Positions 9,392 to 45,049 of a stretch of DNA of 64,000 bases are shown piece after piece (position 1 is the stretch's first letter; each line of letters begins with the position of its first letter). The notes under the pieces are model-generated. The model saw nothing but the letters and a program-made list of their open reading frames with translations, had not been told where the DNA came from and ran no database searches. Source of the DNA: Naegleria gruberi (lineage: Eukaryota); assembly GCA_000004985.1 (NCBI GenBank), contig GG738915.1. The stretch is one strand, 5' to 3'. The translations under genes and the position numbers were made by a program.

Positions 9392-12300
9392 ATGAATCAA
9401 CATTCACGTTCAACAAGATCATCATCCACTCCAACCCATAGCAATACCACCACAAGACAACCACAACAACAACAGCAACAACAATCAATTTTGCCACAAT
9501 ATAAAGATGTAATAGACAAGGTCAATGAGCCACTCTCACTCATCTACTTTGAATCGTCATCAGACGCAAAGGCTGCTAAAAGAACATTAAATTGGGGACT
9601 TTACTTTTACGAGCATGGTGAATATATTAAATCGAGAGAGGCTCTAATTAAATGTGGAGAAGTTATTTCGAAAATCAATTCTAAACTTTCTACCATTAAT
9701 AATAATAATGGCTCGACAATTTCATTATCATCAACAACATCTCAGGGAAATACAGAATTAGTACAAGGTAAGAGGAATTTTCAATGATTGCAAGTGTCAA
9801 TCAATTATAATGACAATTTAATTTACTTTAATAGTTGGAAAGGATTTACTTTATCGAATTATTCTACTTGTGGAATGTTTGGATAAGATTATGAAAGCAA
9901 AACATCAACAATCCATTGTAAAGAACCAAGCAACCAATTCACCACCTAAAACAACATCAAAACCAAATTCAACACCAACAAACAGTTCTTCTTCTAGTAG
10001 TAGCAGCACTCAGGGAACACTTTCTAGAATATCGAGTGGCATATTTTCAACAATCACGAGTAACTTTACATCTATCAAGAGTAATCTTCAGAAGGAGGGT
10101 TCCTCTTTGAATAATACTAATGGTAATAATGGTAGTAACTCGAAACTGATTCAATTATTCAACAATGTTGGAAATGTACTGAAAAAACCAAAGGAAGAGG
10201 TTGCAATACCCAATCTAGCAGACTCTTATGTACAGGATCAATATGTGTTTGTGGAATTTATAGATGAGAAGAAACCTAATGAGCAACAACAACATGTACA
10301 CAGCAATTTAACTAATTCTCCGAACGATGGAAACATCCCTCCTCTACAACAGGTCAGCTCCTCTAGGGATTCTCTCTCTAAATTACAAAAACGTTTGCAA
10401 ACTGTAATGAAAGGCTCCTCAACAACAACGAATACATCTTTACAACATCAACAACCACAACAGCAACAACAGGTAAATTTGACAGGTAGTGGTTCCTCCT
10501 TGTCAGCTTCCTCTCTTCCAGGTCCAATCAGATTATCCCTTGATGCCTTGCAAACATCAGCGTCTGCAACATCACCAAATGGAGAAGTGAAAAGAGGTCC
10601 ACAAACATCCAGACTCAAATCTTTTATTCAATACATGGAAGAGAGGAGTGGAACATGGAGTCCTGAAACAATTTCTGAGGAAGAGGTTAGGGAGATGGTG
10701 AGAGTACTCAATGAAAATTTAAAGATTTTGAGTACCTCATCAAATTACAAAACAATGGGAATTCTGGCACAAATGTACGATCAAATACGTCCCTATAAGA
10801 AGCAAGTTCTGAAAGAGCTCTCCAGTCAATCAACCAAAGACAAGAGCAAGAAGATTTTAATGTTAAAGAAAATTATTAGTATTGCATTTTCAACCAAAAT
10901 GGTAAATCACTATATTTCAAAAGAGGAAAATTATACAACACTTCAGGAAAATTTCCTTCAATATTTCGAGTTGGATCTCTTTACATTGCATTTGCTGAAT
11001 ATTTATGCAGCAGCTGAAAACTTTGATCACACAAACTTTTGCCTTTCACATCTAGTTGCTAACATTGAGCTATTTTCACAAGCAATTAATGATGTTAATC
11101 AATACCAAGTTGAGAAGAGACAAATTTACAAACAAGTGGATGAATTAATTTTTGGCCACCTCAGAAATAGAATAATCGAGTTGAAGTGGTGTTTTGGAGT
11201 TGACACGTTTGCATACGTGACTAATGATTTCGACAGTGACGCTCTCGAGTCACTAGAATTACTACTCAAGTGTCTTGATGGTTGGCTTAAAATCAAAACA
11301 CAAATGGGTGACTATAGTGTAAATAATAGACCAACAATAGCAGCCATTTTAACAGAATGTTTGGCTCATTTTGTAAGAAAATTGTACATTCTCAACAGAG
11401 AAATGATATCAAATAATTTGAAACAATCTCCTCATTTGAGAGGTTTCTTTTTGGAAGCATCTTTTGACATGAATCTCTCAACATTTGTTGTAGATGAGAC
11501 GAAACAATTGTGTTCTAGGTTTGCTTCCTACTTTGACAAGTATTTTGAAAATACTGCTCAATTTAAAGATATTGTAGCAGTCGAGTTTTCTAAACATTTA
11601 TCAGTGGAAGTTAAGGCATTCTGTCAGGAAGCTCTCAAATATCAACAGGCATGTATGGAACAAGCAAAGAAAAATAAGTTTTTGAGAGTTTACTTTAACG
11701 ACTTGAATTTGGGTGTTCTGAATAAGTTGGTGTCCCACTTTGTGACCAAGTACAGAATTCTTCAAGAACTGTCGCCATGTGTAAAAGATTTTGAAATTGA
11801 ATCTTTCTATGAAATTGTGAGTATGTGCATTACAGTTGCTACTCCAAACAGACTGAAAGATTTTTACTCAAAGGTCATGAGTATGGACACACTAGATAAA
11901 CCAATCGACAAGACAGTCCTTTATACATTCTCCTGTATAGATATGGCTAATGCAAGTCTCAAACCAATTCACATGATTTACAATTTGGACACTCTTATTA
12001 GAAATGGAAATGACAAGTATTTGAGTTTTTTAACTCTGCATTTTGAAGCTATTAGACCAACCATTTCCGAATATTTACAATTAATGCTCAATAGATGTAA
12101 ATATGAATTATCCAAAGTGCAGGGAAATGTCCATGACAGAATACGTTTAGCATGTATTGCCTTCAACAATGTCAATGGACTTTTCATGTATGCCAAAGAT
12201 ATCCTGCAACAATTTAACAGTTCAGTATGTGATCAACTGTTGGAAGACTATGACAGAAAGGTTAATCCAGAGGAAGAATCTGATCAGTTCAACATTAATA

Positions 12301-16440: not shown

Positions 16441-17790
16441 ATGAAAAAGAAAATGAATCCATTTGCCTTGCTTGATTTCCATTTGCCTCATAGATTTTCC
16501 TTACATGGTACGGAATCAAAGTATTTTGATCAGGTGCATGTTACCAAGGCCAATGATGAACATACTACTCTACAGGCAGTTGTTGGTGGTGATTCACCAA
16601 CTTGTTTAAAAGAAGAACAATCTTTATGTAATACTAATAATAATAATGGCGGAAATTGCTCCCCTTGTAATACTATGACCAATATTAGAAATAATACATT
16701 AAATAATCAAAGTGATGGATGTTGTCTCACTGAAGAAGACTCTGAAATATTGAATTGTTACTACAGTTCATCCATGTTTCTTCATGTGATCGCAAGGCAA
16801 GAGCTTGAACGTTTCTTACAAGATTCATCATCCAATTCCTCAAAGGCCAACACTCTGGAAATGATAGAAATGATGACCTTGTATTATTCCATCAAGGCAA
16901 CTTGTGAACTCCAGATGGGACGAATGGACAAATATGAAATCTCGGGAATGAAGGCAATGGAGAATCTTGTCAAACTTTCAAGTACAAACTTGGCGATTGC
17001 TGGAAGCTACCTTAATATGTGCTTGCTTGAATTGTGGAATGATAGATTTGATATTGCAAAATTGTATTTTGCAAAGGTTATGACCTTCAAACCATACTTT
17101 GAGAATGCATCGGAAGGACAGTATGAGTACAAATTATTGAAAGATGACCTCAATATCTCAGTCAAGTTATTGGAGTATACTCTATTCAATGCTGATGTTA
17201 ACAATCTTCATCATTTATTGTTTGAAAGGTTTCTTGTAAATTTACCAACTCTCTTTTCGTATTATAGAACTGGGCAAGCGCTCATTAATGAATGGAACCA
17301 CATTCTAAAGAATCCTCACCTTATCAATTCATCAAATTGTATGCAAGTTCATATGCTGATATTGACACTCTTGAGGGATTGTAAAAAGTATGAAGAAGAT
17401 ACAAAGGGACGATCAGAAAATCTCACTTTACTGTACGACTTTTTGGAAAGTGGGATAACATTGGCTCTGTTATCCAAATGCTCTGAAAAAACGCCCATGA
17501 TTGAGTATACCATTGAATCAAGTGCAAAGAGAATTGTCAAGTCAATTAAGAATCCAAATTTTGAATCTGCTCCATTTGAAGTGATCATTTATCTTTCATT
17601 TGCTGCAGAGCATCACTTGAAAAGGATTCTACAAGGTGTTTTATCAAGAGACTCGATGAATTATGTTGAAATGCTTCGAGATACACTCAATGCATACAAA
17701 TCTCTTCAATCCAGATTTAAAATAGCCAATTTTTACTATTATGGGGGAGTATTCCAACAAGTGGATTTATACTTCTGTAATAAAGCGTAA
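16441..17790 (+). CDS. Paralogue of the adjacent Zn2Cys6 factor that lacks an intact zinc cluster
   Basis: Single 449-aa ORF with a true ATG. It shares the N-terminal MNPF[AL][LV]LDFHL motif and ~330 aa of collinear C-terminal similarity with the 18007 gene. Examples: LYYSIKATCE[LC]QMG, LPTLFSY, KNPHLI[ND]S[ST]NC, ALLSK, YLSFAAEHHLK vs HISFAAEYHLK. Only scattered Cys (GGNCSPCN...DGCC) sit where the cluster would be. Confidence 0.7.
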   Translation: MKKKMNPFALLDFHLPHRFSLHGTESKYFDQVHVTKANDEHTTLQAVVGGDSPTCLKEEQSLCNTNNNNGGNCSPCNTMTNIRNNTLNNQSDGCCLTEEDSEILNCYYSSSMFLHVIARQELERFLQDSSSNSSKANTLEMIEMMTLYYSIKATCELQMGRMDKYEISGMKAMENLVKLSSTNLAIAGSYLNMCLLELWNDRFDIAKLYFAKVMTFKPYFENASEGQYEYKLLKDDLNISVKLLEYTLFNADVNNLHHLLFERFLVNLPTLFSYYRTGQALINEWNHILKNPHLINSSNCMQVHMLILTLLRDCKKYEEDTKGRSENLTLLYDFLESGITLALLSKCSEKTPMIEYTIESSAKRIVKSIKNPNFESAPFEVIIYLSFAAEHHLKRILQGVLSRDSMNYVEMLRDTLNAYKSLQSRFKIANFYYYGGVFQQVDLYFCNKA

Positions 17791-18006: not shown

Positions 18007-19719
18007 ATGGTTTGTTTACCTTCCTTATTAAATCAACCATTTGAAAAAAAATCAATGAATCCCTTCCTAGTGCTCGATTTCCACTTATCGGATGAGAATT
18101 TGTTCTTCAATCCTAACAATTTTCAGCCGGTAACCTTTGCAAATAACTGTACTTTTATTCCACAATTACAACCTCTTCAGACTCAGCCTCAATATATTAC
18201 TTCAACAACAGCATCAATAACTAATCACAATACTTCTATTAATCAACATCCTAATAATATCCAACAACAACAACTCCATCACAACAAGAATGGTTTCAAC
18301 CAACAACAAATACCTTCCTCATTCCAGAACGACTCTGTCAGTAGTTCCACTTCCTGCGATCCGGCCACTACACATGGAGGAAGCCGAAGCAACCACAACT
18401 CTGTTACAACAAATCAAACTGCTCTTGAGAATGTAGCAGAAAATGGCACATCTCAACCTTCAGAAGAGAACGCTAACTGTGATAATGCAGATGGAACCAT
18501 TGCTCCAATATCTTGTGATGCATGTCGTTCTAACCATCGTCGATGTGATCGTATCAGACCTTCATGTCAAGCTTGTAAAATAAGAGGAATCCCATGTAAC
18601 TATAGTATGAACTTTAAGAGAAGAGCCAAGTTTATTAACAATAACAGATTGAAGGATGAAGATGTTGCAATTTTGGATGTTTATTACACAGAGTCTGGAT
18701 ATCACATGGTTTCAAGGACAGAGTTGGAACAATTCTTGTTAGAATCTTATAAGTGTAACGGCTCTTACACAACACAAGATATGAAAGAGATGATAGCCCT
18801 GTATTATTCAATTAAAGCAACCTGTGAGTGTCAAATGGGTCAAATTGACAAGGCAGAGTTATCCGCAAAGCAGGCAAAGGAGTATCTTTCCAAAGTATTT
18901 GATTGCTATACCAGTATGAAGGTTGCTGGAACCTATCTCAACATGTGCTTTTATGAACTGTGGTTTGAGAGGTTACACACAGCCAAGTTTTACTTTCAAA
19001 CTCTACTCTTCTTTAAAGAAGCTCTTGAGAACTCAAAGGAAGAAACAAAGAATTCCATTAGAGAGCATCTAATAATTACAATCACCTACTTGGAGGAGAC
19101 CATATTTAACATTCAGGATAAGAAGAACCTTCATGAGAGAACCTTCGACAGGTTTTTGCTGACACTCCCAACACTCTTCTCCTATTTGAAAACTTCAGAT
19201 TGTATGTTTGGTAGTGACTGGGATTATTATTTGAAGAATCCACACCTAATTGACTCTACGAATTGTGTACAGGTTAATACACTCCTTCAAAATCTATTGA
19301 GAGAATGTAAGAGGTATGAACAGAATAATTTTGGAGGAAATCCAGTTCTGGATTTGTACTATGATGTCATGGAGAGTGGTTGTACATTGGCACTGTTGTC
19401 AAAAACTAAGGAAATGAATTCAATGATGGATTATGTCTTGGAGAGAAGTGCTACTACTATTGTAAATTCGATTAATAACCCTAAATTTGAATCAATGCCT
19501 TTTGAGATTCTTCTCCACATTTCATTTGCTGCAGAGTATCATTTGAAAAAGGTGAGAGAGGGCATATTTATGGGTAGTATGAATAATTGTGATTATATTG
19601 AAATGTTGAGAACTGAATTAAGAGCCTACCAAACCCTACAATCAAGATACAAGATTGCCAAGACTTACTTTTATGGTGGAATATTCAAGAAATTGGATGA
19701 CTATTTCAATAATCAATAA
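18007..19719 (+). CDS. Zn(II)2Cys6 (GAL4-type) binuclear-cluster DNA-binding protein
   Basis: Single 570-aa ORF with a true ATG at 18007. It carries a perfect C-x2-C-x6-C-x6-C-x2-C-x6-C pattern, CDACRSNHRRCDRIRPSCQACKIRGIPC, at nt 18514-18597. The N-terminus is Q/N/S-rich. The C-terminal domain is shared with the upstream paralogue. Confidence 0.8.
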   Translation: MVCLPSLLNQPFEKKSMNPFLVLDFHLSDENLFFNPNNFQPVTFANNCTFIPQLQPLQTQPQYITSTTASITNHNTSINQHPNNIQQQQLHHNKNGFNQQQIPSSFQNDSVSSSTSCDPATTHGGSRSNHNSVTTNQTALENVAENGTSQPSEENANCDNADGTIAPISCDACRSNHRRCDRIRPSCQACKIRGIPCNYSMNFKRRAKFINNNRLKDEDVAILDVYYTESGYHMVSRTELEQFLLESYKCNGSYTTQDMKEMIALYYSIKATCECQMGQIDKAELSAKQAKEYLSKVFDCYTSMKVAGTYLNMCFYELWFERLHTAKFYFQTLLFFKEALENSKEETKNSIREHLIITITYLEETIFNIQDKKNLHERTFDRFLLTLPTLFSYLKTSDCMFGSDWDYYLKNPHLIDSTNCVQVNTLLQNLLRECKRYEQNNFGGNPVLDLYYDVMESGCTLALLSKTKEMNSMMDYVLERSATTIVNSINNPKFESMPFEILLHISFAAEYHLKKVREGIFMGSMNNCDYIEMLRTELRAYQTLQSRYKIAKTYFYGGIFKKLDDYFNNQ

Positions 19720-19913
19720 ATAATCCTTACTATTATACTATTGTATCATGAGGATAAAGCACAAGTGTTCGAATATACAATCCAATTCAAGTTAGGCCGT
19801 ACGATTTGGTTTCCCTTCCTGTTCCGCCCAAAATCAGATGTGCACAATTATAAATTCCATTCCCTTATTACTCCTTCCAGCTCATCAAAAGGAATAAAAT
19901 CATCTTAAAGAAA

Positions 19914-22122
19914 ATGCACAAGGAAGAGGCAGTGTTTGATATTTGTGAAGATAATGTGAGCACACCAACCAGTCCTAAAGCTATTCAGCTTATTGAAACG
20001 TCACCCTCATCAACAGAAGAAGTAAAACAATCCATACCAGTAAAAACAGCCGCGCAATCAAATGAACCAGAGGAAGTTTTAAAAGATCCAAATGGACCTA
20101 CTTTACACTTTTATGATCATTTTCTGATCTTTAAGTGTTTTGGATTTTGGACATGGATATTCATTATTTTGGGAATCTTGGGCTCTATGGGTAATGGTGT
20201 TGTGGCGTTAATATTTCAATTCATATTCGGTGATTTGATCAATATTTTCCAACCTGTGAATGGAGTTATGCCATCAGCTACAATAATGAGAAATGCCATC
20301 TCAGATGTTTGTCTCAAATTTACAGGAGTTGCTATTGGAAGTATGGCTTCCAGTTTCGTATCTCAATTTTTCAATGGGTGGGCCAGTGAAAGAATTGGAA
20401 TCTCTCTCAGACAGGCTTATTTCAATGAATTAACAAGACAAGAGGTTGCATTCTTTGATATTAAGAAAACAGGTGCCCTGACAATTGCACTCAGTGAAGA
20501 TGTTGGAAAGATCCAAGAAGCTTGGACCAGAAAAATTTCTGGTGTCATGCAACACACTAGTACCATTCTCATTGGGTTGATTCTGGCCTTTGTCAGTAGT
20601 TGGCAAATGACTCTCGTTACCATTTCAACCACTCCACTCATGATTTTGATTGGTGTGGTTATGGGAAAATTGACAGAAAAGATTAGTTTTAAATCAGGTG
20701 AAACTATCGCAAAGAGTGCCTCAAAGGCAACCGAAGTTGTCTCCTCATTCAAAACAGGTAAGTTGAAATTCCAATATTTGTTCTAAAAAATTCAACCTAG
20801 TTAAAAGTATGGGGTGCGAAGAAAAGGAACAAGCTCAATTCGCTAACATTTTGAAAAAGCTTCATTTGTATGGCATATTAAAAGCTGGCGCACAAGGTGC
20901 TAGTTTGGGGTCTGAAAGCTTCATCATTTGGGGTACCTGTTCATTGGCCTTTTGGTATGCGTAAGTAGCAGTGTAATTTTAAACCTCAATTTAACAATCA
21001 ACAGAGGTAACCTGGTTGTAGATGGAACTATTGTCATTGGAGATTTGGTAAAAGTTTTTGGTTTGTTAATTTTCAGGTAAGTTAAATTTCCAATATTTGT
21101 ACCTTAGACCTATTCTATAAGTACAGTGTATTTTCAATGGCATTTGTTTTTGAAATGTTACCTGACATTTTCAAGGCCTTGAGCTGTCACAGAGCTCTAC
21201 TTATGGTTATGAAAAGAAAACCAGCCATTCCATTTAAGGGTGGAAAGAGTTTGAGCGATAATGTAGGATTGGTTGAATTTAAAAATGTCAAATTTTCATA
21301 TCCATCTCGTCCAAATGTTACTATTCTTCAAGATTTTACACTTAATGTAAAGACAGGTCAATCAATTGCTATGGTTGGTCCGTCAGGATCAGGAAAATCG
21401 ACCATTGTTGGCTTGTTAGAAAGATTCTATGATCCAGAAGAAGGAGTTGTTTCAATTGACGGTGTAGATATTAAGGAAATTGATCCAAAGTGGTTGCACA
21501 AAAATGGTAAGTATCTTAAAAAATTATTCCTTATCAAGTATTTAAAACTATAGTTGGTATTGTTACACAAGAACCAGTATTGTTCGCTTGTACCATTAAG
21601 GAAAATATTGCTTATGCAGTTGGTTTGGAAAATGTAACTGATAAAGATATTGAACAAGCTGCCAAAGCTGCCAATTGTCATAATTTCATTTTGGATCTTC
21701 CTAATGGATACAATACATTACTCGGTGAAAAAGGTGTTTCTCTTTCAGGTGGCCAAAAGCAACGTGTTGCCATTGCAAGAGCTCTCTTACAAAATCCTAA
21801 AATTTTGCTTTTGGACGAAGCAACTTCAGCTCTCGACACTGAATCTGAAGCTCTTGTTCAAGCTGCTTTGGAAATGTTAATGAAAGGAAGAACCTCCATC
21901 TCCATAGCTCACAGACTTTCAACAGTTCAAAATTGTGATGTCATTTACGTTCTCGTTAAAGGAGACATCAAAGAATCAGGCACTCACAAGGAATTGATTG
22001 GCATTGAGAATGGTATTTACAGAAAATTAGCAGAAAAACAAATGGGAATTGATCAATCTTACGAATCATCCAATGAAAATGTTGGTGATACTTCTTCTCC
22101 AAGTGATTTAAATCAACAATAA
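19914..22122 (+). CDS. ABC transporter, ABCB-type half transporter (TMD-NBD)
   Basis: join(19914..20757,20801..20960,21005..21076,21127..21506,21554..22122), 2025 nt = 674 aa. All four donors are GTAAGT. Motifs: Walker [11 protein letters not shown]-loop VTQEP restored across intron 4, signature [15 protein letters not shown]. Also Walker [13 protein letters not shown] and H-loop SIAHRLST. The TMD shows ABCB-like [23 protein letters not shown]. Confidence 0.85.
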
Positions 22123-22658
22123 ATTATTTCATCTTCTCCTATCATTAATTAATTAAATATTCAATAATGTCCTAATTATTTTCCAATATTTATGATTTTC
22201 CATCATGACTATTCGAACAAAAATCAGTTCCACACCCGAACAGCCACAATCATTACAGTACCATCTCATCATCATGGCTTGAAATCTTCATCACAATCAA
22301 TTGAGCCTGTCCAATAATTTGTAATACTACCTGTGGTGCTTGCTTTTTCTTGATCACAGTTTTAAAAGATTTTAGCGGGAAGAAATCTCAAGCCCTCAAC
22401 TCGCAAAAGGCAACTTGTTTTTTTTTTCAAGTTTAAAAAAAAAGCAGAGAAAAGGCGCAAAGTTTTTTTAGTATCGAATTTATTATTAGTCGCCCACGTA
22501 GTAATTATCATCAAATATATATTGATAGTATTAAACAACAACAACAGTAACAAGAGTAATAGTAACAAGAAAGTGTATTGTTGCGAACATTTAATTGTAT
22601 TTTAGAAAAGAGGAATTAAAAATCGGAATATTTGTAAATAAGAATTATAAAATTGAAA

Positions 22659-24215
22659 ATGGTTAATGTTCATACCTCACCCATTCCAACTGGTAATAAG
22701 AATATTCAACAACAAGAGCAAAAACTTTCTGCTTCAATGGAAAATAGGCAACAACAATATATTACGACCTTTAAACATGACAAGGAAATAATTCAAAAAC
22801 ATCAAGAAGCCTATTACGACTATGAAGACAACGGAGAGGAAGAAGAAGATGAATATTATACTGCTCCAGCTTCTGTTTCATCAAATCAAAGTCAGGCAGC
22901 AGCTAATGATACCAACAATATTTACTCACCTTCAACAGTCTTGGCCTCTATTGTACAACAAAAACCAGATGATTGTTCTCCAAACAACACCTTTTTCTAT
23001 GGACAACAACCAGTCAATCAACAACATGACGATTTAATGAATACTTCTGCTGTCAATAATAGTAGTATGAGAGATGAGGAAGAATTTTACGTTGACACTT
23101 TGGAAAATCATCCTTTGGCCAGTGACTCACCCCAAGTTGAACATTATATTGAAGGTGTTCAATTTTTATTGCCTGTGAGATACGAACCTATTGAATGTGT
23201 CGGTAAAGGTGCATATGGTATTGTTATTAGTGCTGTTGATAAGTTGATGAATAGAAAAGTGGCTATTAAGAAGATTGAAGCTGTTTTCAAGAAGGAAAAG
23301 TTCTTCCAAAAGAGAATTATGAGAGAAATTAAAATTTTAATTCACTGCAAAGGACACCCAAATATAGTAGAAATTTTAGACTTGGTTCCTCCAGAATCTT
23401 TTGATGAATTTGAAGATATTTACATTGTAACTGAATATATGGATTGTAACTTGCAAGAATTATTGAAATCTGGTCAAAAATTCAGTGAACAGAATATTCA
23501 ATACTTTTTATATCAAATGTTGAAGGCTTTAGATGTCTTGCACAATTGTGACATTGTGCATCGTGACATTAAGAGCAGTAATATTCTCGTAAATAATGAT
23601 TATGAAGTTAAATTCTGTGATTTTGGACTTTCTAGAGCCATGATGAATGAAAAAATGTCAACAGACAATGTGGCAACAAGATGGTATAGATCTCCAGAAC
23701 TCTTGTTAAAGTATCACAAGGCAGGTAAACCAATTGATGTTTGGAGTTTGGGATGTGTATTTGCTGAGCTTTTGTCCACTCCAAAACAACATGTTTTATT
23801 CCCAGGTGAAAGTCACCTCAACCAAATTGATAAGATTTTGGATATTTTGGGAACACCTCTCCCTGAAGATGTTTTTGGTTGTTTCAAGGCTCAAGTATAC
23901 ATGAGTAATCAACCATACAGAAAGAGAAAGGACTTTAAGAAGTTATTCCCTGATGCAAACCCAGAAGCTTTAGATCTTTTAGAAAAGATGCTTGAATTCT
24001 CTCCAGAAAAGAGAATTACAGTATCTGATTCTTTGAGACAGCCATATCTCGACAGTATGGCCAATCACATGGATGAAGATGAGGATGCAAACAATGGATT
24101 TGTAACTAGAGACTTTGAATACCGATTTGATGAAAGTTGGGAAGTTCCTGAAATTAAGAGAATGATGTATGAAGAAATTGTTAATTTTCACAACACCTTT
24201 TCGAAAAGATTTTGA
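22659..24215 (+). CDS. MAP kinase-family Ser/Thr kinase with an N-terminal low-complexity extension and an atypical T-D-N activation-loop motif
   Basis: The ORF track begins at TTG 22653; the first ATG is 22659. Motifs: GKGAYGIVISAVD, VAIKKI, HRDIKSSNILVN, DFGLSR, then STDNVATRWYRSPELLL. The VATRWYRxPE box is MAPK-diagnostic. The C-terminus is CD-domain-like and acidic. Stop TGA at 24213-24215. Confidence 0.85.
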   Translation: MVNVHTSPIPTGNKNIQQQEQKLSASMENRQQQYITTFKHDKEIIQKHQEAYYDYEDNGEEEEDEYYTAPASVSSNQSQAAANDTNNIYSPSTVLASIVQQKPDDCSPNNTFFYGQQPVNQQHDDLMNTSAVNNSSMRDEEEFYVDTLENHPLASDSPQVEHYIEGVQFLLPVRYEPIECVGKGAYGIVISAVDKLMNRKVAIKKIEAVFKKEKFFQKRIMREIKILIHCKGHPNIVEILDLVPPESFDEFEDIYIVTEYMDCNLQELLKSGQKFSEQNIQYFLYQMLKALDVLHNCDIVHRDIKSSNILVNNDYEVKFCDFGLSRAMMNEKMSTDNVATRWYRSPELLLKYHKAGKPIDVWSLGCVFAELLSTPKQHVLFPGESHLNQIDKILDILGTPLPEDVFGCFKAQVYMSNQPYRKRKDFKKLFPDANPEALDLLEKMLEFSPEKRITVSDSLRQPYLDSMANHMDEDEDANNGFVTRDFEYRFDESWEVPEIKRMMYEEIVNFHNTFSKRF

Positions 24216-29712: not shown

Positions 29713-30961
29713 ATGGCTGATGAAAACCACTTTTTCACTGACGCAAAGACCCACGATATTAAGAAGGACCTTGAATTCGGCAAGGTTTTGGGAAGGTAGG
29801 TTAATTGCTTTTGTATAGGAAGTCTGTAATAAGAACATCTTTTTTCAATACAACAAAACCCTTATCTTCTAATTGATACTACAACAATTCAAAATACAAT
29901 GATCATCAATAATAACAAAATGTTAGTGGTACCTTCTCCATCGTCAGAGAAGCCGCCCAAAAGAATGATGGTAGAAAAGTTGCCGTCAAGATTATCGATA
30001 AAACAAACTTGGAAGTAAATAAGGATTCATTAAAAACAGAAGTTTCAATTTTAAAGAGCGTAAACGATCAAAATATTGTAGAATTAATTGATGTTTATGA
30101 AAACGGTATGAAGGTTTACCTTGTCATGGAATTGTATGTTATAGTTTTGAACCATTTACCTTATCATTTATCTTTAATTTTATACCCAAACAATAATAGG
30201 CTAACAGGAGGTGAGCTTTTCGACAGAATTGTGAATAAGTACCCAGAAGGTTACTCTGAAGATGTTGCTGCTGAATTAATTAGAAAGATAGTTTCCTCAA
30301 TCAAATACTTGCACTCTTGTGGTGTTGTCCACAGAGATTTGAAACCAGAAAATTTAATTTACTCTTCTGATGGAAATGACAGTGATATCAAAATCACTGA
30401 CTTTGGTTTGGCAAAAATTGCCGATGGTGACTTTTTGTTAAAGACTGCTTGTGGTACACCAAACTATGTTGCCCCCGAAGTCCTTCAAAATACTGGTTAT
30501 GATGCCTCTGTAGATATGTGGTCTATTGGTGTTATTTTGTATATACTGTAAGTTTAGTGGGACTTTCAATGAATTCACCCTAATAATAATTCTATCAAAA
30601 TAGTTTGTGTGGTTTCCCACCATTTTACAGTGAAAATACTCCAGAACTGTTCGAACAAATTATTAATGGAGACTATGATTTCCCATCCCCTTACTGGGAC
30701 AAGGTCAGTGACAGTGCTAAGGATTTGATCCGACACTTGTTGGTCGTAAATCCAAAGAAGAGATTTACTCCAGATCAAACATTGAGCCATCCATGGATTA
30801 AGAAATTGTCTACTAATAAGAATCACAGACCAGAAATTATTGATGAATTGAGGAAGTTTAATGCTAGACGTAAATTTAAGATTACTGTAGAAGCTGTTTT
30901 GGCTGCTCAAAAACTCTTAGGAAAGTTAAAGAACAGAAAATCATCTATCAAGAAGCATTAA
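29713..30961 (+). CDS. Calcium/calmodulin-dependent protein kinase (CaMKI-like)
   Basis: join(29713..29795,29927..30133,30200..30547,30604..30961), 996 nt = 331 aa. Donors are GTAGGT, GTATGT and GTAAGT. Motifs: GSGTFSIV restored across intron 1, VAVKII, LVMEL|LTGGELFDRI, HRDLKPENL. Also DFGLAK, GTPNYVAPE and a basic CaM-binding-like tail ARRKFKITVEAVLAAQKLL. Confidence 0.85.
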
Positions 30962-31985: not shown

Positions 31986-34900
31986 ATGAGAGAAACAAAG
32001 AGATCCCCATCCGCTGCTTCTGCCCTTGATGAGAGTGCAACGGTGCAGGGACTTAGTAGATTCAAACACTTTCATAGTGCAAGTGCTCCCGAATCTTTAG
32101 GAGTAGATAAACTTGAGGTAAGTGAATTCAAAACGAGGAAGTAACCAACAAGCTCTCTTATAGTACAAACCTAAGAATACATACAACGTTAGACCAAAAA
32201 CTACAATACAACCTCAAAAATTAAAGATACCTAAGGAATTACAACAATTTAATCATTTAGACCCATCTAGAAACACAAGTACAAAGAAGAGGTAAGAATA
32301 TCATAACTGAAATCAATTATTAAAAAATGATTTAATTAAACAGAGAAACTAGTACTACAACAACAAAAAGAGCATCAGCACAAGAAAAATCAAGAAAAAC
32401 ATTGGAAGAAAGACCACCAAAACAAGCCAAATATACTACCAGTGTCAGTAGATTGTCTGAATTGAACTCTTTGAATGTTAGTGCTAGAATCGGAGCCCTC
32501 AAACAAATGGATGTTGAAGAAGGAACAATTGATGTAGCTAGTTACCCAAGACTTTTAATTATTAACAAGGAATTTTCGGAAGAGGAAAAGGATATCATCA
32601 TGAGTGGGTATGTATTAATAAGAGGAATTTAATTAATAATTATGAATTGAACAGACAAGAGATTGAAAGCAAGAGCAAATTTCTACCATTAGAATTGTTT
32701 GATGACGAAGAAATATTTGAAAAATTCACTATTGAAGATCTTCTTTCGAATAGCTACATTGTACAGTCTAAGTTTTATACTGGCGCCAAATCAGCTTATG
32801 AAAAATCTTATAAGGTTTGTTTCATATTATTACTAGTGATCTAATCAAAAAACAGTGGGCTCGTTGCAGAGTTCTTGAATATAATCCTGATGAAAGAAGT
32901 TTCCTTATTGAATGGTTAGATTCTCCAAACACAACTGGATATGAAATTACAACAACTGATGAAAACAATGACTCTCCAACCACTACTAATGGCAGAAAAC
33001 AAAAATGGGTAAAAAGATTGAATTTATTAGTTCATGGAGATGAAACTTTTGAATTGAGAATAAGATTTGCACAAATGAGAAGAAAAAAGTTTGAAGAGAA
33101 AATGTTTTATTATCTTCAAATTGACAAGACTATTACTGATGACTTGATAGATATTACCCCTTTTGAAAAACAAATTTATGAAAAAATTTTGAAGCTTGTT
33201 GCAAATGAATCCCAATTCCTTTCTAGGCATGTTCCAGTCATTGAAAAATATGTTGATGAAGCAAAAGAGCATTACAAAATTTCAATGAAAGAGGCTATAT
33301 TTTTGTATTATCTGAACAGTAGAGAAGAATATGAAAAGTATGAAAAATATTTATGGTGCAAAGAAGAGCTAAGGAAAAATAATATGACAGCACCATGTTC
33401 TGGTGTTATTGAGGTACCAGCCTATAACTATCAAGCCATTCACGATATTATTGAACAAAATATCTTTTATACTCACCTTGATTTGATAACAGCAATGCAT
33501 AATATTCACTCTCAATTATTTATTTTGCTTAAAAGCTTAAAGGAAGATGGAAAGAGTATGGACTTGATTACAACACAAAAATGTGATACTCCTTGTGAGT
33601 TAGGATCATTTTTGGAGCTCCAAAGAGATACATTACAATTATCCATGAAAAGAATTAAGGAAGATTGGTGCCAAAAAGTTATTTCGATAGTGCAAAATGA
33701 TCTTGATAGATTTTTCAACTTTTTCGAAGATGATATTGAAAGATTCGAAAGCTCTAGAATGAAGAAGTTCTTGAGATTGACCAATTTCGTTCTTTCAGCT
33801 CAGTTAAGAGATTATGTTTTTGATGAACTTCACAAGTTGAGAGACTTTATAATACCTTATAGATACAGAGGATCGGATCATTTTGATGCCAATGAAGTTT
33901 CTGGATTTGAACCTTTATTTATTATCAAGATTGTGGAGAAAATTGAAAATGGAGAATCTAAGATTGCATTCGATCCTCCACTCGAATCTGTATTAGATGG
34001 CTTACGACAAATATTTTATGGAGTGCTGGAGGAAACCAATTTTATTCCAGGTATAGGAGAGACTCTCTTCCCATTATTGACTCTTAAGCCAGAACAATAT
34101 TGTATAAATAACTTAGAACTAAGATTAGAAAAAGACACAAAAGGTTTATGGAAAGATATTCAAGAAGTAATTACTTCCAACTTTAGAGAACCAGAAATGT
34201 TGCTCTCCTTATATAAGGGATATGAACATTGCTTAAAGTTGGATCCAGTCGCGTTTGCTACAGAATTTTATAATGAACATGTTGGCAAAACAGAAATGTC
34301 AAAACTTCTTTCAATCTTTAGAGAAGAATTGGCAAGACTTAAAAGTGATTCAGAAGAAGTGTATAACATTTCAACTGATAATGTCAATTTCAACTTATTG
34401 CGAGTAGATTGCAGTGGTATCAAAAACTCACTATATTTGAGAACCGATGGTACTGCAAAAGAGTTGATGAAATTAATATCAAAATGGAGTACTGAAGAGA
34501 GTAGTAAAATTACTCAATCTTTCCGAGATGTATATAGCAAAGTTCAAATCATACCTCAAACTGCTGAAGAACTGGACTCTTTAAAGAAGTACTTAACAGA
34601 TTGCACAAAGGAAATTGAAAGATTACAATCTCAATTCGCAACAGTCAAATCAAGTGTCCATTTACTCTCAGATTTTTCATTCAACCTCGACATGGATGAT
34701 TTTACAGTATTTGTAGATACTCATTCATGGCCAAAGAAGGTTTATGGACTTCTTGAGGATAGTACTATTAGACTTGAAGAAGACAAGAGAAAATTCATGG
34801 ATGAATTACAAAGAGATATCAATAATCTTCTCAGCAACTTGGATTTATATGAAAAGATTATTGAACGATTTGCTGTTTTCGATGATTTAGAAAAGACAGA

Positions 34901-37900
34901 CCAATACTATGAAAAGGTAAAGGATATGGAATCTAAATTGGAGGAAGCAAAGAAAAATTCCGAATTGTATAATAATCGTGAAAGAATGTTTAATATGAAC
35001 ACAACAGAATTTTCCAAACTGAAGGACTTGGAGAAGAACTTTAAACCTTACTTTGACTTATGGAGAATTGCTTATGAAAAGGCACAAAACTTTCCAAAAT
35101 GGAATGAAGGCACATTCATGAATTTGGATGCCAAGTTTATTGATGAATCATTAAGTATGTGGCAATCTACATTGAAAAATTTAGAAAAGAACTTGCAACC
35201 AAAGGACGAAACTGCAAGAATTATTACAAGACAAGTGAAGAAGGAGGTTGTAGCATTCTTACTTCACATGCCACTTATCAATGCCTTGAGAAAGGATGGT
35301 CTTAGACAAAGACATTGGCAGAAAATTGCAAAACTTCCACTTGAATTTGGAAAATCCACAGCCCAATTGGATATTGAAAGTATTAATATCATGAACTTGG
35401 GAGACTTTACAAAGATTGGTTTCGAAGAAAAACCAATTTTAGAAAAGATTATTGATATTTCTACATTGGCCGAGAAAGAAGCAGAAATTTCAAAGAACCT
35501 CGAAAAAATGTACTCTGCTTGGAAGAATGTCAATTTCCATCTTGAGAAATACGGTATTACATACAAACTTGTTGAATTGGATGAATTACAAGTCCTTCTC
35601 GATGAACAAATTGTTTTAACTCAAGGTATGAGAGCTTCTCCTTACGTAAAGGAACTTGAGACTGAAGTTATTGCTTGGGAAAACAAATTATTAGAAAGAC
35701 AAGATATAATGACCGAATGGATTAAGTGTCAAGTTGCTTACTTGTATTTGGAACCAATCTTCAGTTCTCAAGATATATCAGCACAGCTTCCTGATGAAGC
35801 AACCAAATTCGGTATGGTTGACAAAATGTGGAAGAATGTTATGGAAGTTACCAATAAGGTCAAAGTTGTCGCTCAAGTTGTTTCTGATGAAAATATGAGA
35901 GATAACTTTGAAACAGCCAACAAGAGATTGGAGCAAATCCATTTTGGTTTGAAACAATATTTGGAAACCAAAAGAAGAGCCTTCCCAAGATTTTACTTTT
36001 TATCAGATGATGAATTGTTGGAAATCCTTTCTGAAACTAAGGATCCACTCAGAGTTCAACCCCACTTGAAAAAGTGTTTCGAAGGTATTGAAAGGTTAGA
36101 GTTTGACAAGGAAGGAAAAATCGTTGCCATGCTCAGTAAACAAGGTGAGCGTATTCCATTCCAAAAGCATGTAATACCAGCAGAAAAGAATGGCAGAGTT
36201 GAGTTGTGGTTGTTAGAAATTGAAAATGAAATGAAGGGTAGTTTGAGACACTCTATTGAACAATCCATCAATGCATATGCTGCTATTGCTGGTAATATTG
36301 ACAAGAGAGGTCAATGGATTCTTGCATGGCCTGGTCAAGTGGTATTGACTGTAAGTCAACTTTTCTGGACAAGAGAAGTAGAAGAATCTATCAAAGCACA
36401 AGGTGTTAAAGGAGTTCAAAGATATTACTCCAAGATGACCAAACAACAAAAATCTCTTATTGAACTTGTAAGAGGAGAAAATTTAACTGCTTTGCAAAGT
36501 ATCACACTTGGTGCAATGGTCGTTATTGATGTTCACGCAAGAGATGTTGTTGCTGGTTTGGTGAAAGAGGCAGTCGGAGATATTTCAGACTTTGAATGGC
36601 AAAGTCAGCTCAGATATTATTGGGAAGATGTTAAAGATATCAAGGATGGAAAGAATCAAAACCAAATTGTTGTTAGACAAGTTACTGCTGAAATTAACTA
36701 TGGATACGAATATTTGGGTAATCAAGAAAGACTTGTCATTACACCTCTTACTGACAGATGCTACAGAACACTTACAGGTGCTCTCCAATTATTTAAGGGC
36801 GGTGCTCCTGAGGGTCCTGCTGGTACAGGTAAAACTGAAACTACAAAAGATTTGGCTAAGGCTATCGCTAAACATTGTGTAGTTTACAACTGTTCAGATG
36901 ATCTTACCTATGAGTCTATGGCTCAATTCTTTAGAGGTTTGGCATCAAGTGGTGCTTGGTCATGTTTTGACGAATTTAACAGAATTGAATTGGATGTCCT
37001 TTCTGTTGTTGCCCAACAAATTCAAACTATCCAACTTGCTGTAGCTAGTAGAGCCACCAGATTCTTCTTTGAAAATATGGAAATTAACATGAATCCAACT
37101 TGTGCTATTTTCATTACAATGAATCCTGGTTATGCTGGAAGATCTGAACTTCCTGATAACTTGAAAGCTCTCTTCCGTCCAGTCGCTATGATGGTTCCTG
37201 ATTATGCCTTGATTGCAGAAATTTCATTGTTTTCTTATGGATTTTTGGAAGGTCGTAAACTGGCTAGAAAGATTGTTTCTACTTATAGATTATGTAGTGA
37301 ACAATTGTCATCCCAAGATCACTACGATTATGGTATGAGAGCTGTTAAAGCAGTATTGGTAAGAGCAGGTTCATTAAAGAGACAATTTCCAGATCTTAAC
37401 GAAGAACAACTCATGTTAAGAGCATTGAATGACGTAAATCTTCCAAAATTCGTTTCTGCTGATATCCCATTGTTCAACGGTATCATCAAGGATTTGTTCC
37501 CAACTACAGAACATCAAAAGGTTGACTACTCTGCTCTTGAAAACGCCCTTATTCAAACATGTGCTGAAATGAATCTTCAACCTGTTCCTTACTTTATTCA
37601 AAAGATTATCCAACTTTATGAAATGATTATTGTAAGACACGGTTTGATGCTTGTAGGTTTCCCAATGTCAGGTAAAACAGCTTCCTATATTGTTTTAAAG
37701 TCTGCTTTGGAGAAATTAGGAGAAAAGATCAATCTAAGAGTCTTATCACCAAAGGCAGTTTACGGTGGAAATCTATACGGTTATAGAGATACAAAGACCA
37801 AAGACTGGAAAGATGGTGTTCTTGCTCTTCACTTCCAAAAGTTGAGTACACTTGCAGAAAAGGAAAGAAAATGGCTCATGTGTGACGGTCCTGTTGATGC

Positions 37901-43900: not shown

Positions 43901-45049
43901 GAGGATGGTTACCAACTTTCACCTTCCGGTATTTACACTGTTCCAAATGGAGATAAGAAACATAGTGAATATATTCAAACAATCGAAAAATTCCCATCAA
44001 GCGAAACTCCAGAAGTATTTGGTTTGCACGAAAACGCTACCATTAGTAAGGATCAAACTGAGTCTAAACTAATGTTTGATGCATTACTTACCACTCAACA
44101 AAATAGTGCTCCTGAAACCAATGATGAAGATGACATTAATGAAAATTCTCATGAAACTGAAGTACTTTACGAATTAGCAGCAGATATCTTGACTAAACTC
44201 CCTGACAACTTTATTATTGAAGGAGATGGTGGCGCAGAGGCCAAGTTCAAGGTTGACTATCACGAAAGTATGAACACTGTATTTGTACAAGAGTTAATTA
44301 GATTTAACAAACTTTTGAATGCTATTAGAAACAGTCTTCAACAATTACAACTTGCATTGAAAGGTCTCACAGTCATGAGTAGTGATTTGGAACAATTGAG
44401 CAAGTCTCTTTCAAATGGTAAGGTACCTCTTGTATGGAGCAAGGCCAGTTATCCTTCTAGAAAACCTCTCAGAACATATATCCAAGATTTGATTAAGAGA
44501 ATTGAATTCTTTAATAATTGGTTTATTCATGGTAAACCATCAGTGTATTGGTTGAGTGGTTTCTACTTTACCCAATCATTCTTGACAGGTGTAAAGCAAA
44601 ACTTTGCCAGAAAGAATAAGATTGCTATTGACCAAATTGATTTTGAATTTGAAATTTTGGACAAGTACTATGAAGAAAACATTTCCTTGCCAGAACCAGA
44701 ATGTGGTTGCTATGTTTATGGATTGTTCTTGGAAGGTGCTGCTTGGGATAGAAAGAAGAAGTGTTTGACAGATCCAAGACCAAAACAATTGTTTGATGAA
44801 ATGCCAATAATTTGGTTCAAACCTGTAGATCGTAGTGTTGAACAAACAGAACCAACAAGTTCAGAGGTTAAAACCAAATCTAATACCTATGTTTCACCAC
44901 TCTACAGAACTAGTGAAAGAAGAGGTACCCTCACCACAACTGGTCACTCGACTAACTTTGTGATGAGTATCAAGTTGCCAATGGCCTCAGATAATAATGA
45001 AAAGTATTGGATTAAGAGAGGATGTGCCTTACTTTGCCAACTTGATTAA
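31986..45049 (+). CDS. Axonemal dynein heavy chain, inner-arm (single-headed) type, ~4292 aa, with one frame discontinuity
   Basis: join(31986..32117,32164..32291,32344..32607,32655..32814,32856..42365,42365..45049). Four 5' introns (46, 52, 47 and 41 nt; donors GTAAGT, GTAAGA, GTATGT, GTTTGT) keep the frame. After that there are ~12.2 kb without introns. AAA1 P-loop [20 protein letters not shown] (36813-36836); GAPEG is the inner-arm flavour. AAA2 GFPMSGKT (37656), AAA3 GPTGTGKS (38721), AAA4 GVGGSGRQS (39852). A coiled-coil stalk and a conserved C-terminal domain follow. The two long ORFs (frames 0 and 2) join only by a -1 shift at the A5 run 42361-42365, giving ...TTKEK|MLDDDTVINTL... Confidence 0.9.

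What the first reader, a model, noticed from the sequence alone, without database searches (positions are those of the whole stretch)
20758..21100. Two introns of the ABC transporter share a 22/24-nt identical 5' segment, with a third partial copy in the 3' UTR
Intron 1 starts GTAAGTTGAAATTCCAATATTTGT (20758-20781). Intron 3 starts GTAAGTTAAATTTCCAATATTTGT (21077-21100). That is 22 of 24 positions identical without gaps, far beyond the GTAAGT donor consensus. The flanking exons and the 3' halves of the introns are unrelated. The 12-mer TTTCCAATATTT recurs at 22180-22191, just after the stop codon of the same gene.

Three readings are possible:
- intron gain by copying of an existing intron (reverse splicing or an introner-like process)
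- gene conversion between introns
- a conserved cis element such as a splicing or RNA-binding-protein site
Basis: seen in the sequence. Interest (0 to 1): 0.55.

Follow-up and report, generated by a model that had tools for sequence, protein, structure and literature searches.

The report
Copied intron start in Naegleria gene
Two tiny introns of one Naegleria gruberi ABC-transporter gene begin with almost the same 24 bases, most likely because the species-specific intron 1 was made by copying part of the older intron 3, which would be a rare visible trace of how new introns arise.

Summary
The window is Naegleria gruberi NEG-M. The gene is the annotated ABCB half-transporter NAEGRDRAFT_74542 (674 aa, four introns of 43-50 nt).

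- **Observation.** The 22/24 match between the starts of introns 1 and 3 is real. It is the only outlier among 6,216 pairs of donor-like sites in the window (16/18 beyond GTAAGT; next best 12/18; about 2.5e-6 per pair by chance).
- **Not a species-wide donor consensus.** No other intron or donor-like site in the window carries the motif. There is no Rfam match and no stable fold.
- **Not conserved in N. lovaniensis.** Its two closest copies have no intron at site 1. They keep introns at sites 2-4, and their intron 3 sequences are unrelated. Five more distant paralogues also lack site 1.
- **Best reading (confidence about 0.55).** Intron 1 is a lineage-specific gain, and its 5' half was copied from intron 3, 319 nt downstream. 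The route could be reverse splicing plus cDNA recombination, or templated break repair. It is unresolved because the 3' halves do not match.
- **Third copy.** The 3'-UTR 12-mer is at chance level (5 such 12-mer hits seen, about 3 expected).
- **Related case.** A Willaertia magna ABCB paralogue has two full-length paralogous introns 17 nt apart.

This is a new member of a known kind, of moderate interest.

The parts
19914..20757 (+). Exon 1 of the ABCB half-transporter NAEGRDRAFT_74542 (ATG to aa 281, ends ...AAAACAG)
   Evidence: Spliced translation is identical to P0127/EFC37687.1; Pfam ABC_membrane on the ORF.
20758..20800 (+). Intron 1 (43 nt, phase 1, GTAAGT...CTAG). Lineage-specific position and the proposed recipient of the copy.
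   Evidence: Frame-restoring removal. No intron at this site in N. lovaniensis L001/L002, N. fowleri L003/L089, Willaertia L090, N. lovaniensis L091 or ENA L004. Present and identical in a second N. gruberi-type assembly, L005.
20758..20781 (+). Shared 24-nt segment, copy in intron 1: GTAAGTTGAAATTCCAATATTTGT
   Evidence: 22/24 identical to 21077-21100; sole outlier among 6,216 donor-site pairs.
20801..20960 (+). Exon 2
20961..21004 (+). Intron 2 (44 nt, phase 2); position shared with N. lovaniensis P0001/P0004; sequence unrelated to introns 1 and 3
21005..21076 (+). Exon 3 (72 nt)
21077..21126 (+). Intron 3 (50 nt, phase 2). Older position shared with both N. lovaniensis copies, and the proposed donor of the copied segment.
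   Evidence: Same codon position and phase in L001 (4162-4229) and L002. The N. lovaniensis intron sequences there are unrelated to it and to each other.
21077..21100 (+). Shared 24-nt segment, copy in intron 3: GTAAGTTAAATTTCCAATATTTGT
21127..21506 (+). Exon 4
21507..21553 (+). Intron 4 (47 nt, phase 1); position shared with N. lovaniensis
21554..22125 (+). Exon 5 with the TAA stop (22123-22125)
22180..22191 (+). 12-mer TTTCCAATATTT downstream of the stop codon. Listed because the finding names it, but judged a chance recurrence.
   Evidence: Five such 12-mer hits in the window against about 3 expected. Chance mean is 0.54 for the 13-mer with one mismatch or fewer. No counterpart in the N. 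lovaniensis 3' flank.

Best explanation
**Claim.** Intron 1 (20758-20800) is a young intron specific to the N. gruberi lineage. Its first 24 nt were copied from intron 3 of the same gene, which occupies an older position 319 nt downstream.

**How it works.** The copied piece supplied a ready-made strong donor (CAG|GTAAGTT...). The unrelated 19-nt 3' part supplies the TTCTAA-type branch region and the CTAG acceptor. The 43-nt insertion can therefore be spliced out exactly, leaving the conserved peptide ...SSFKT|VKSMG... intact.

**What is shown and what is inferred.**
- Shown: the two segments are homologous by copying, site 1 lacks an intron in every relative examined, and site 3 is older.
- Inferred: the direction (3 to 1) and the molecular route.

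**Two routes fit.**
- (a) Intron transposition. The excised intron 3 reverse-splices into its own transcript, followed by reverse transcription and recombination, with later indels in the 3' half.
- (b) DNA-level templated repair of a break at site 1. This would use the nearby intron-3 donor region as a short template (microhomology CAG) plus other filler, which naturally gives a partial 24-nt copy.
For: **Similarity.**
- 22/24 identity (16/18 beyond GTAAGT) has a chance probability of about 2.5e-6 per pair.
- It is the only outlier among 6,216 donor-like pairs in the window and one of two outliers among 435 pairs of 30 real or predicted heterolobosean introns.

**Gene model.**
- The model is exact: identical to EFC37687.1.
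- A second independent assembly, 99.1% identical, has the same introns.

**Comparative data.**
- Site 281 is uninterrupted in N. lovaniensis P0001 (L001 3796-3821...GCATTTAAAACTGTGAAAAGTATGGG...) and in P0004 (L002).
- No intron maps to that site in N. fowleri P0025 and P0009, N. lovaniensis P0059, Willaertia P0087 or the intronless ENA P0021.
- Site 358 (intron 3) is shared in position and phase with both N. lovaniensis copies.
- Upstream synteny (the Zn_clus gene) links the window gene to L001.
- There is no residue gap at site 1 in the protein alignment, so the intron is an insertion and not intronised coding sequence.

**Background rate of intron change.** Intron sequences evolve fast here: intron 3 of the two 90%-identical N. 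lovaniensis paralogues is unalignable. About 92% identity between the focal segments therefore implies a recent copy or strong constraint.

**Independent analogue.** Willaertia magna P0087 has two introns 17 nt apart that are homologous over their full length (26/28 at the 5' end plus a shared 3' end). They are the sole outlier in 22 kb.

**Literature.** Intron transposition into the intron's own mRNA is the classic proposed mechanism, with only about 14 unambiguous cases reported, from Mycosphaerella and Oikopleura (PMC3443670).
Against: - Only the 5' 24 nt match. The 3' halves (19 and 26 nt) are not significantly similar. A whole-intron reverse-splicing copy young enough to keep 92% identity should match throughout unless indels intervened.
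- Gain versus loss rests on one sister lineage (the two N. lovaniensis copies are recent duplicates, 90% identical) plus distant paralogues whose intron sets differ almost completely. Parsimony is therefore weak.
- The closest N. gruberi paralogue, P0002 (76% identical by BLASTP, 74% in the alignment), could not be examined because its DNA is not on record.
- The NJ tree places the window gene outside (P0002,(P0001,P0004)). One loss in that clade would therefore also explain the absence.
- No downstream synteny with L001.
- The rest of the N. gruberi genome could not be searched, so a third-party source for both segments is not excluded.
- No cDNA was available.
Confidence: 0.55

Rival explanations
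1. Gene conversion or ectopic repair between two pre-existing introns. Intron 1 would be old and lost in the N. lovaniensis lineage, and a short conversion tract homogenised the first 24 nt of introns 1 and 3.
For: - The similarity is sharply bounded to a 24-nt tract, as expected for a short conversion patch.
- Under the NJ topology a single loss explains the absence of site 1 in N. lovaniensis.
- This gene family shows high intron turnover. The window gene has itself lost the ancestral W-codon intron found in N. lovaniensis and N. fowleri.
Against: - Conversion needs flanking homology. Before the event the two sites would have shared only CAG|GTAAGT(T), about 10 nt, and the flanking exons are unrelated.
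- Site 281 has no intron in any of the 7 other genes mapped.
Confidence: 0.13
2. A functional cis element, for example an intronic splicing enhancer, an RNA-binding-protein site, or a DNA site of the CC(A/T)7G (CArG-like) type. It would be kept by selection in two introns of this gene, possibly also in the 3' UTR, and would regulate this transporter.
For: - The exact 13-mer TTCCAATATTTGT occurs only in these two introns within 64 kb.
- It lies at the same offset (+12) from the donor in both.
- It is unchanged in a second strain, although only about 0.8 substitutions were expected there.
- CCAATATTTG fits CC(A/T)7G, which is sparse in the window at 0.27 per kb.
Against: - Absent from intron 3, the other introns and the 3' flank of both N. 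lovaniensis copies.
- A binding site would explain 8-13 nt, not the 16/18 match that includes the positions between the donor and the motif.
- The 3'-UTR copy is at chance level.
- No Rfam family. The segment is predicted unpaired, with fold z-scores of -0.5 and -1.3.
- The loose metagenome scan found only unrelated contexts.
Confidence: 0.1
3. Both segments derive independently from a third source: a dispersed repeat or a degenerating introner-like element of the N. gruberi genome whose 5' end is GTAAGTTRAAWTTCCAATATTTGT.
For: - Introner families that decay into ordinary introns are known in algae and fungi (PMC3443670; PMC9860276 listed).
- The N. gruberi genome outside this window could not be searched.
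Against: - No further copy in the 64-kb window on either strand.
- The strict pattern gave 0 hits in metagenome contigs.
- The introns are 43-50 nt with no stable structure, no terminal inverted repeats and no clear target-site duplication.
- Site 3 is an old intron position.
- No paper in the searched library links introners to Naegleria genomes. The three papers that contain both words are on other subjects.
Confidence: 0.1
4. Chance resemblance between two A/T-rich intron starts that share the species' donor context.
For: - Positions +7 to +12 of Naegleria introns are A/T-biased.
- GTAAGTTAAATT also starts an N. lovaniensis P0059 intron.
- From memory of the genome paper, N. gruberi has about 11,000 introns. 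That gives tens of millions of pairs, so some 16/18 pairs are expected somewhere in the genome.
Against: - About 2.5e-6 per pair.
- For pairs within one gene (of the order of 10^4 genome-wide, my estimate) the expectation is about 0.03.
- The empirical maximum for unrelated pairs is 12/18 in 6,216 and in 435 pairs.
Confidence: 0.05

Closest known systems
Intron transposition: paralogous introns created by reverse splicing, as inferred in Mycosphaerella/Zymoseptoria (Torriani et al. 2011) and Oikopleura (Denoeud et al. 2010), both as summarised in PMC3443670
   Same: - Two spliceosomal introns share sequence well beyond the splice signals.
- One sits at a position absent from relatives.
[quoted passage not shown]
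   Different: - Only the 5' 24 nt are shared, not the whole intron.
- The introns are very short (43 and 50 nt).
- The organism is a heterolobosean amoeboflagellate. The library searches found no report of such events in this group.
- This is a single pair, not a genome-wide pattern.
[quoted passage not shown]
   Same: - A short insertion of mixed origin at a previously uninterrupted coding site.
- Partial copying of a nearby sequence is what templated end-joining produces.
- A weak direct repeat (ATTCAA...AG) occurs at the end of exon 1 and at the end of the intron.
   Different: - Daphnia cases show clear short direct repeats and usually no identifiable donor.
- Here the donor is identifiable, but the repeat is only 6 nt plus AG and is not significant.
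Introners and introner-like elements (Micromonas, fungi, many protists; PMC9860276, PMC3609843)
   Same: Introns that are copies of one another and create new intron positions.
   Different: - Introners occur in tens to thousands of copies.
- As described in PMC3609843 (abstract), the fungal introner-like elements are longer than regular introns and have stable predicted structures. From memory, some introners elsewhere are DNA transposons with target-site duplications.
- Here there are two copies, both in one gene, of 43-50 nt and unstructured.
Willaertia magna ABCB paralogue P0087, introns L090 1588-1676 and 1694-1742
   Same: - Same protein family and same taxonomic order.
- Two introns of one gene begin with a near-identical stretch of about 26 nt (26/28).
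- They are the sole outlier in their neighbourhood.
   Different: - Homology covers the whole intron, with an internal indel.
- The two introns are only 17 nt apart, which creates a micro-exon.
- Which of the two is new is not known.

Membership tests
Intron transposition (paralogous spliceosomal introns) | Sequence similarity between two introns significantly beyond the splice-site consensus | tested here: met
   16/18 beyond GTAAGT; about 2.5e-6 per pair; sole outlier among 6,216 pairs.
Intron transposition (paralogous spliceosomal introns) | Similarity spans the whole intron, as expected for a reverse-spliced full-length copy | tested here: not met
   Identity stops after nt 24. The 3' halves are not significantly similar and have no source in the window.
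Intron transposition (paralogous spliceosomal introns) | Recipient intron occupies a position that lacks an intron in orthologues and outgroups | tested here: met
   Site 281 has no intron in 7 related genes from 4 taxa. The closest N. gruberi paralogue, P0002, was not testable.
Intron transposition (paralogous spliceosomal introns) | Donor intron occupies an older, shared position | tested here: met
   Site 358, phase 2, is shared with N. lovaniensis P0001 and P0004.
Intron transposition (paralogous spliceosomal introns) | RNA intermediate (reverse splicing plus reverse transcription) | not testable with these tools
   Sequence alone cannot separate the RNA route from templated DNA repair.
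Introner / introner-like element family | Many dispersed copies in different genes | tested here: inconclusive
   No further copy in the 64-kb window. The strict pattern is absent from metagenome contigs. The rest of the N. gruberi genome was not available.
Introner / introner-like element family | Element-like anatomy: longer than regular introns, stable structure or terminal inverted repeats, target-site duplication | tested here: not met
   43 and 50 nt; minimum free energy -2.4 and -5.6 kcal/mol with z-scores -0.5 and -1.3; no terminal inverted repeats or clear target-site duplication.
Species-wide extended donor consensus | Motif present in a large share of the species' introns | tested here: not met
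   0 of 9 other window introns and 0 of 110 other donor-like sites carry it. Positions +7 to +16 show only an A/T bias.
Conserved cis-regulatory or splicing element | Conservation at the orthologous place in related species | tested here: not met
   Absent from the introns and 3' flank of both N. lovaniensis copies. The 99%-identical strain is uninformative.
Known structured RNA family | Match to an Rfam covariance model | tested here: not met
   0 matches at E of 1 or less over 19500-22700.
Intron gain by tandem duplication of an AGGT-containing exon segment | Intron sequence is a duplicate of the adjacent exon | tested here: not met
   The uninterrupted site is ACAG|TT with no AGGT. The intron is not similar to the flanking exon except for ATTCAA.
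Intronisation of coding sequence | Relatives carry coding residues where the intron lies | tested here: not met
   No alignment gap at SSFKT|VKSMG in any relative.

The most novel reading that the evidence does not exclude
Heterolobosean amoebae (Naegleria, Willaertia) may have an ongoing short-range process that seeds new introns with copies of a neighbouring intron of the same gene, sometimes leaving micro-exons of 6-17 nt. Two of the seven intron-containing ABCB genes examined here carry such a pair. A genome-wide survey might therefore reveal many young paralogous introns. That would give a culturable, deep-branching system in which intron transposition, or templated-repair intron gain, could be caught and dissected.
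Probability: 0.25. Interest if true: 0.7.

Novelty: new member of a known kind. Interest (0 to 1): 0.45.

Why it matters
- How new spliceosomal introns arise is still largely unresolved. Cases where the source of a new intron can be identified are rare: about 14 unambiguous transposition events in the 2012 review PMC3443670.
- This is a datable pair with an identifiable donor, a recipient, an intron-free site in the N. lovaniensis relatives, and an independent analogue in Willaertia. It gives a concrete, checkable case outside fungi, tunicates and algae.
- Because the copy is partial, it also bears on whether such gains go through RNA (reverse splicing) or through templated DNA repair.
- For annotation, it confirms the existing gene model.
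- The '3'-UTR copy' should not be read as a regulatory element.

Tried and rejected
1. **General donor consensus: rejected.** All 21 GTAAGT sites, 112 GTA[AT]G[TA] sites and 11 predicted window introns were compared.
2. **Third copy as part of the feature: rejected as chance.** 12-mer census and Markov expectation.
3. **Structured RNA or known family: none found.** Rfam at E of 1 or less gave nothing, and the folds are not better than shuffles.
4. **Source of intron 1's 3' half: not found.** No match in the window with up to 4 mismatches.
5. **Environmental relatives: dead end.** The strict metagenome pattern gave 0 hits. The loose pattern gave 83 hits, all in unrelated and mostly repeated contexts, with no similarity to the window.
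6. **DNA of N. gruberi paralogues P0002, P0045 and P0046: not on record**. A protein search for environmental ORFs of the P0002 gene found none. The spliced window protein could not be looked up.
7. **Downstream synteny with the N. lovaniensis locus: none**. Only the upstream Zn_clus neighbour is shared.
8. **Tandem duplication, intronisation and transposon-with-target-duplication models for intron 1:** the anatomy does not fit.
9. **A 'TCAAT' intron motif:** about 3-fold enriched in 11 window introns, but post hoc and weak.
10. **Literature:** no paper found on intron transposition or introners in Naegleria or Willaertia.
11. **One simulation script timed out** and was replaced by an analytic expectation.
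Full report
**What the window is.** Four intron-free ORFs of the window are exact matches to annotated Naegleria gruberi proteins (EFC37682, EFC37692, EFC37729, EFC37730) on a 260,018-bp scaffold. The window is therefore N. gruberi NEG-M. It has about 35% G+C, is gene-dense and has few introns.

**The gene.**
- Removing 20758-20800, 20961-21004, 21077-21126 and 21507-21553 joins five exons into one 674-aa ABCB half-transporter.
- The product is identical to the annotated protein EFC37687.1 / XP_002670431.1, NAEGRDRAFT_74542.
- All four introns start with GTAAGT and end with AG. They are 43, 44, 50 and 47 nt long, in phases 1, 2, 2 and 1.
- The protein aligns without gaps across every junction to its Naegleria relatives, so the splice sites are well supported even without cDNA.
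- An independent metagenome contig (L005, ENA ERZ929261) is 99.1% identical over 4.4 kb. It carries the same introns, with three intron substitutions, none in the shared segments.

**Checking the observation.**
- The coordinates and sequences are exact. The two segments match at 22/24, and the 12-mer TTTCCAATATTT lies 55 nt after the stop codon.
- Beyond the GTAAGT consensus the intron match is 16/18.
- I compiled 30 introns: 4 from this gene, 7 predicted elsewhere in the window, and 19 mapped exactly from related Naegleria and Willaertia genes. Identity at positions 7-24 centres on 5-6/18 and reaches at most 12/18, apart from two outliers.
- Those outliers are this pair (16/18) and a Willaertia pair (17/18). 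A position-specific model gives about 2.5e-6 per pair.
- Among all 112 GTA[AT]G[TA] sites on both strands of the window (6,216 pairs), this is the only pair above 12/18. The intron-intron similarity is real and not chance.
- The 3'-UTR 'third copy' is different. 12-mers taken from the two 24-mers also occur at 34386, 39731, 57563 and 62415. That is 5 hits against about 3 expected, with about 0.13 expected near the gene.
- The 13-mer with one mismatch or fewer has a shuffle expectation of 0.54 per window. I treat the third copy as coincidence.

**What it is not.**
- It is not a general donor extension. None of the other GTAAGT sites or predicted introns has the motif, and positions +7 to +16 show only an A/T bias.
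- It is not a known RNA: Rfam gave nothing at E of 1 or less.
- It is not a structure. The shared segment is predicted unpaired, and the fold energies are within the shuffle range.
- It is not a dispersed repeat within reach. There is no other copy in the window. The strict pattern is absent from metagenome contigs, and a looser pattern found only unrelated contexts.

**Comparative evidence.** The best protein matches are N. lovaniensis P0001 (77%), N. gruberi paralogue P0002 (76%) and N. lovaniensis P0004 (71%). I mapped introns by exact protein-to-DNA matching. The table gives intron positions in window-protein coordinates.

| Gene | Intron positions |
|---|---|
| Window gene (N. gruberi) | 281, 335, 358, 485 |
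| N. lovaniensis P0001 and P0004 | 333, 335, 358, 485 |
| N. fowleri P0025 | 179, 333 |
| N. fowleri P0009 | 102, 195, 333, 535 |
| N. lovaniensis P0059 | 90, 107 |
| Willaertia P0087 | 95, 115, 337, 342, 369 |
| Environmental paralogue P0021 | none |

- Site 281 (intron 1) is therefore unique to the window gene. In N. lovaniensis the codons run straight through (L001 3796-3821).
- There is no residue gap there in any relative, so the intron is an insertion.
- Site 358 (intron 3) is shared with N. lovaniensis in position and phase. The sequences there are unrelated to the N. gruberi intron. They are also unrelated to each other, although the two N. lovaniensis proteins are 90% identical. Intron sequence turns over quickly in this group.
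- About 92% identity between two non-orthologous introns therefore points to a recent copy.
- The upstream neighbour (a Zn_clus gene) is shared between the window and L001. The downstream neighbours are not.
- A neighbour-joining tree puts the window gene outside (P0002,(P0001,P0004)). Orthology is therefore not fully settled, and gain versus loss is favoured but not proven.
- The DNA of P0002 could not be obtained.

**Mechanism.**
- The most economical reading is that intron 1 is new and took its first 24 nt from intron 3, 319 nt downstream.
- The copy brings a strong donor in its native context. The remaining 19 nt provide a TTCTAA-type branch region, similar to the TTCTAT or TTTAAY seen 8-15 nt upstream of other acceptors in the window, plus a CTAG acceptor.
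- Reverse splicing of the excised intron 3 into its own transcript, followed by reverse transcription and recombination, is the classic model (PMC3443670). The same gene has also lost the ancestral W-codon intron (site 333), which lies between sites 281 and 358. That is at least compatible with a cDNA-mediated event.
- Reverse splicing predicts a full-length copy, and the 3' halves do not match. Either indels remodelled the 3' half, or the copy was partial from the start.
- A partial copy is what templated break repair would give. It would use the nearby donor region, with CAG microhomology, plus filler. The end of the intron (ATTCAACCTAG) weakly echoes the end of exon 1 (ATTCAAAACAG).
- I cannot separate these routes from sequence.
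- The rivals are gene conversion between two old introns, a selected cis element, a third-party repeat, and chance. They are listed with their tests in the Rival explanations section.

**An independent analogue.**
- While mapping relatives I found that the Willaertia magna paralogue P0087 has two introns, L090 1588-1676 (89 nt) and 1694-1742 (49 nt). They are separated by a 17-nt micro-exon that encodes the conserved (G)LVADM.
- The two introns share 26/28 nt at the 5' end and the 3' end TTTTTAATTTAATAAT..AAG, differing by an internal indel.
- In 22 kb around that gene they are the only similar donor pair.
- Within-gene intron duplication has thus happened at least twice in heterolobosean ABCB genes, once with a full-length copy. 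This raises my prior that the N. gruberi pair is a copy rather than a constrained element.

**Comparison with known cases and novelty.**
- The closest known kind is intron transposition producing paralogous introns, inferred in Mycosphaerella/Zymoseptoria and Oikopleura (PMC3443670).
- The pair meets three criteria: similarity, a novel recipient position and an older donor position. It fails the full-length criterion.
- It does not fit introners, tandem AGGT duplication or intronisation.
- Library searches found nothing on such events in Naegleria or Willaertia.
- I class it as a new member of a known kind, of moderate interest.
- The interest would rise if a genome-wide scan shows that short-range intron copying is common in these amoebae.

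Noticed in passing
L090 1588-1742 (= L092 11088-11242), Willaertia magna ABCB paralogue P0087: Two introns of 89 and 49 nt flank a 17-nt micro-exon. They are homologous over their whole length (26/28 at the 5' end, shared 3' end, internal indel). They are the only similar donor pair in 22 kb.
   Followed up: partly
L001 3963-4089 and L002 about 2442-2573 (N. lovaniensis P0001/P0004): A 6-nt micro-exon (GTATGC) lies between a W-codon intron and intron 2. The W-codon intron is shared with N. fowleri P0009 and P0025, so it is ancestral. The N. gruberi window gene has lost it.
   Followed up: partly
L002 about 2575-2646: The annotated N. lovaniensis protein P0004 lacks 24 residues (GNLVVDG...LIF), although the DNA encodes an intact exon 3 with good splice sites. 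This is probably an annotation skip.
   Followed up: no
window 9768-9834 and 30548-30603: The predicted intron at 9768 matches both focal introns at 12/18, the top of the background range. The introns at 9768 and 30548 share the 9-mer TTTCAATGA. TCAAT is about 3-fold denser in 11 window introns than in the whole window. This is weak and post hoc.
   Followed up: partly
window 34386, 39731, 57563, 62415: Other exact 12-mer matches to parts of the shared 24-mers, in either orientation, for example ATTTCCAATATT at 62415. They show that the 3'-UTR 12-mer is within chance.
   Followed up: yes
window 16441-17790 and 18007-19719: Two adjacent ORFs are both similar to the single Zn_clus-type gene upstream of the N. 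lovaniensis ABC gene. This looks like a tandem duplication in N. gruberi.
   Followed up: no
L005 (ENA ERZ929261, run ERR1078381, PRJEB11402): An environmental metagenome contig is 99.1% identical to N. gruberi NEG-M over 4.4 kb (35 substitutions, 2 indels). This indicates a close N. gruberi-type strain in that sample.
   Followed up: partly
window 32817-45049: Very long ORFs (3,252 aa, then 894 aa) on the + strand. From the size alone I guessed a dynein heavy chain. I did not analyse them or run any family search.
   Followed up: no
window 21077-21107: Intron 3 contains an internal AG (ACCTTAG) directly after the shared segment. It resembles the end of intron 1 (ACCTAG). Using it would shift the reading frame. 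Whether it is ever used is unknown.
   Followed up: no
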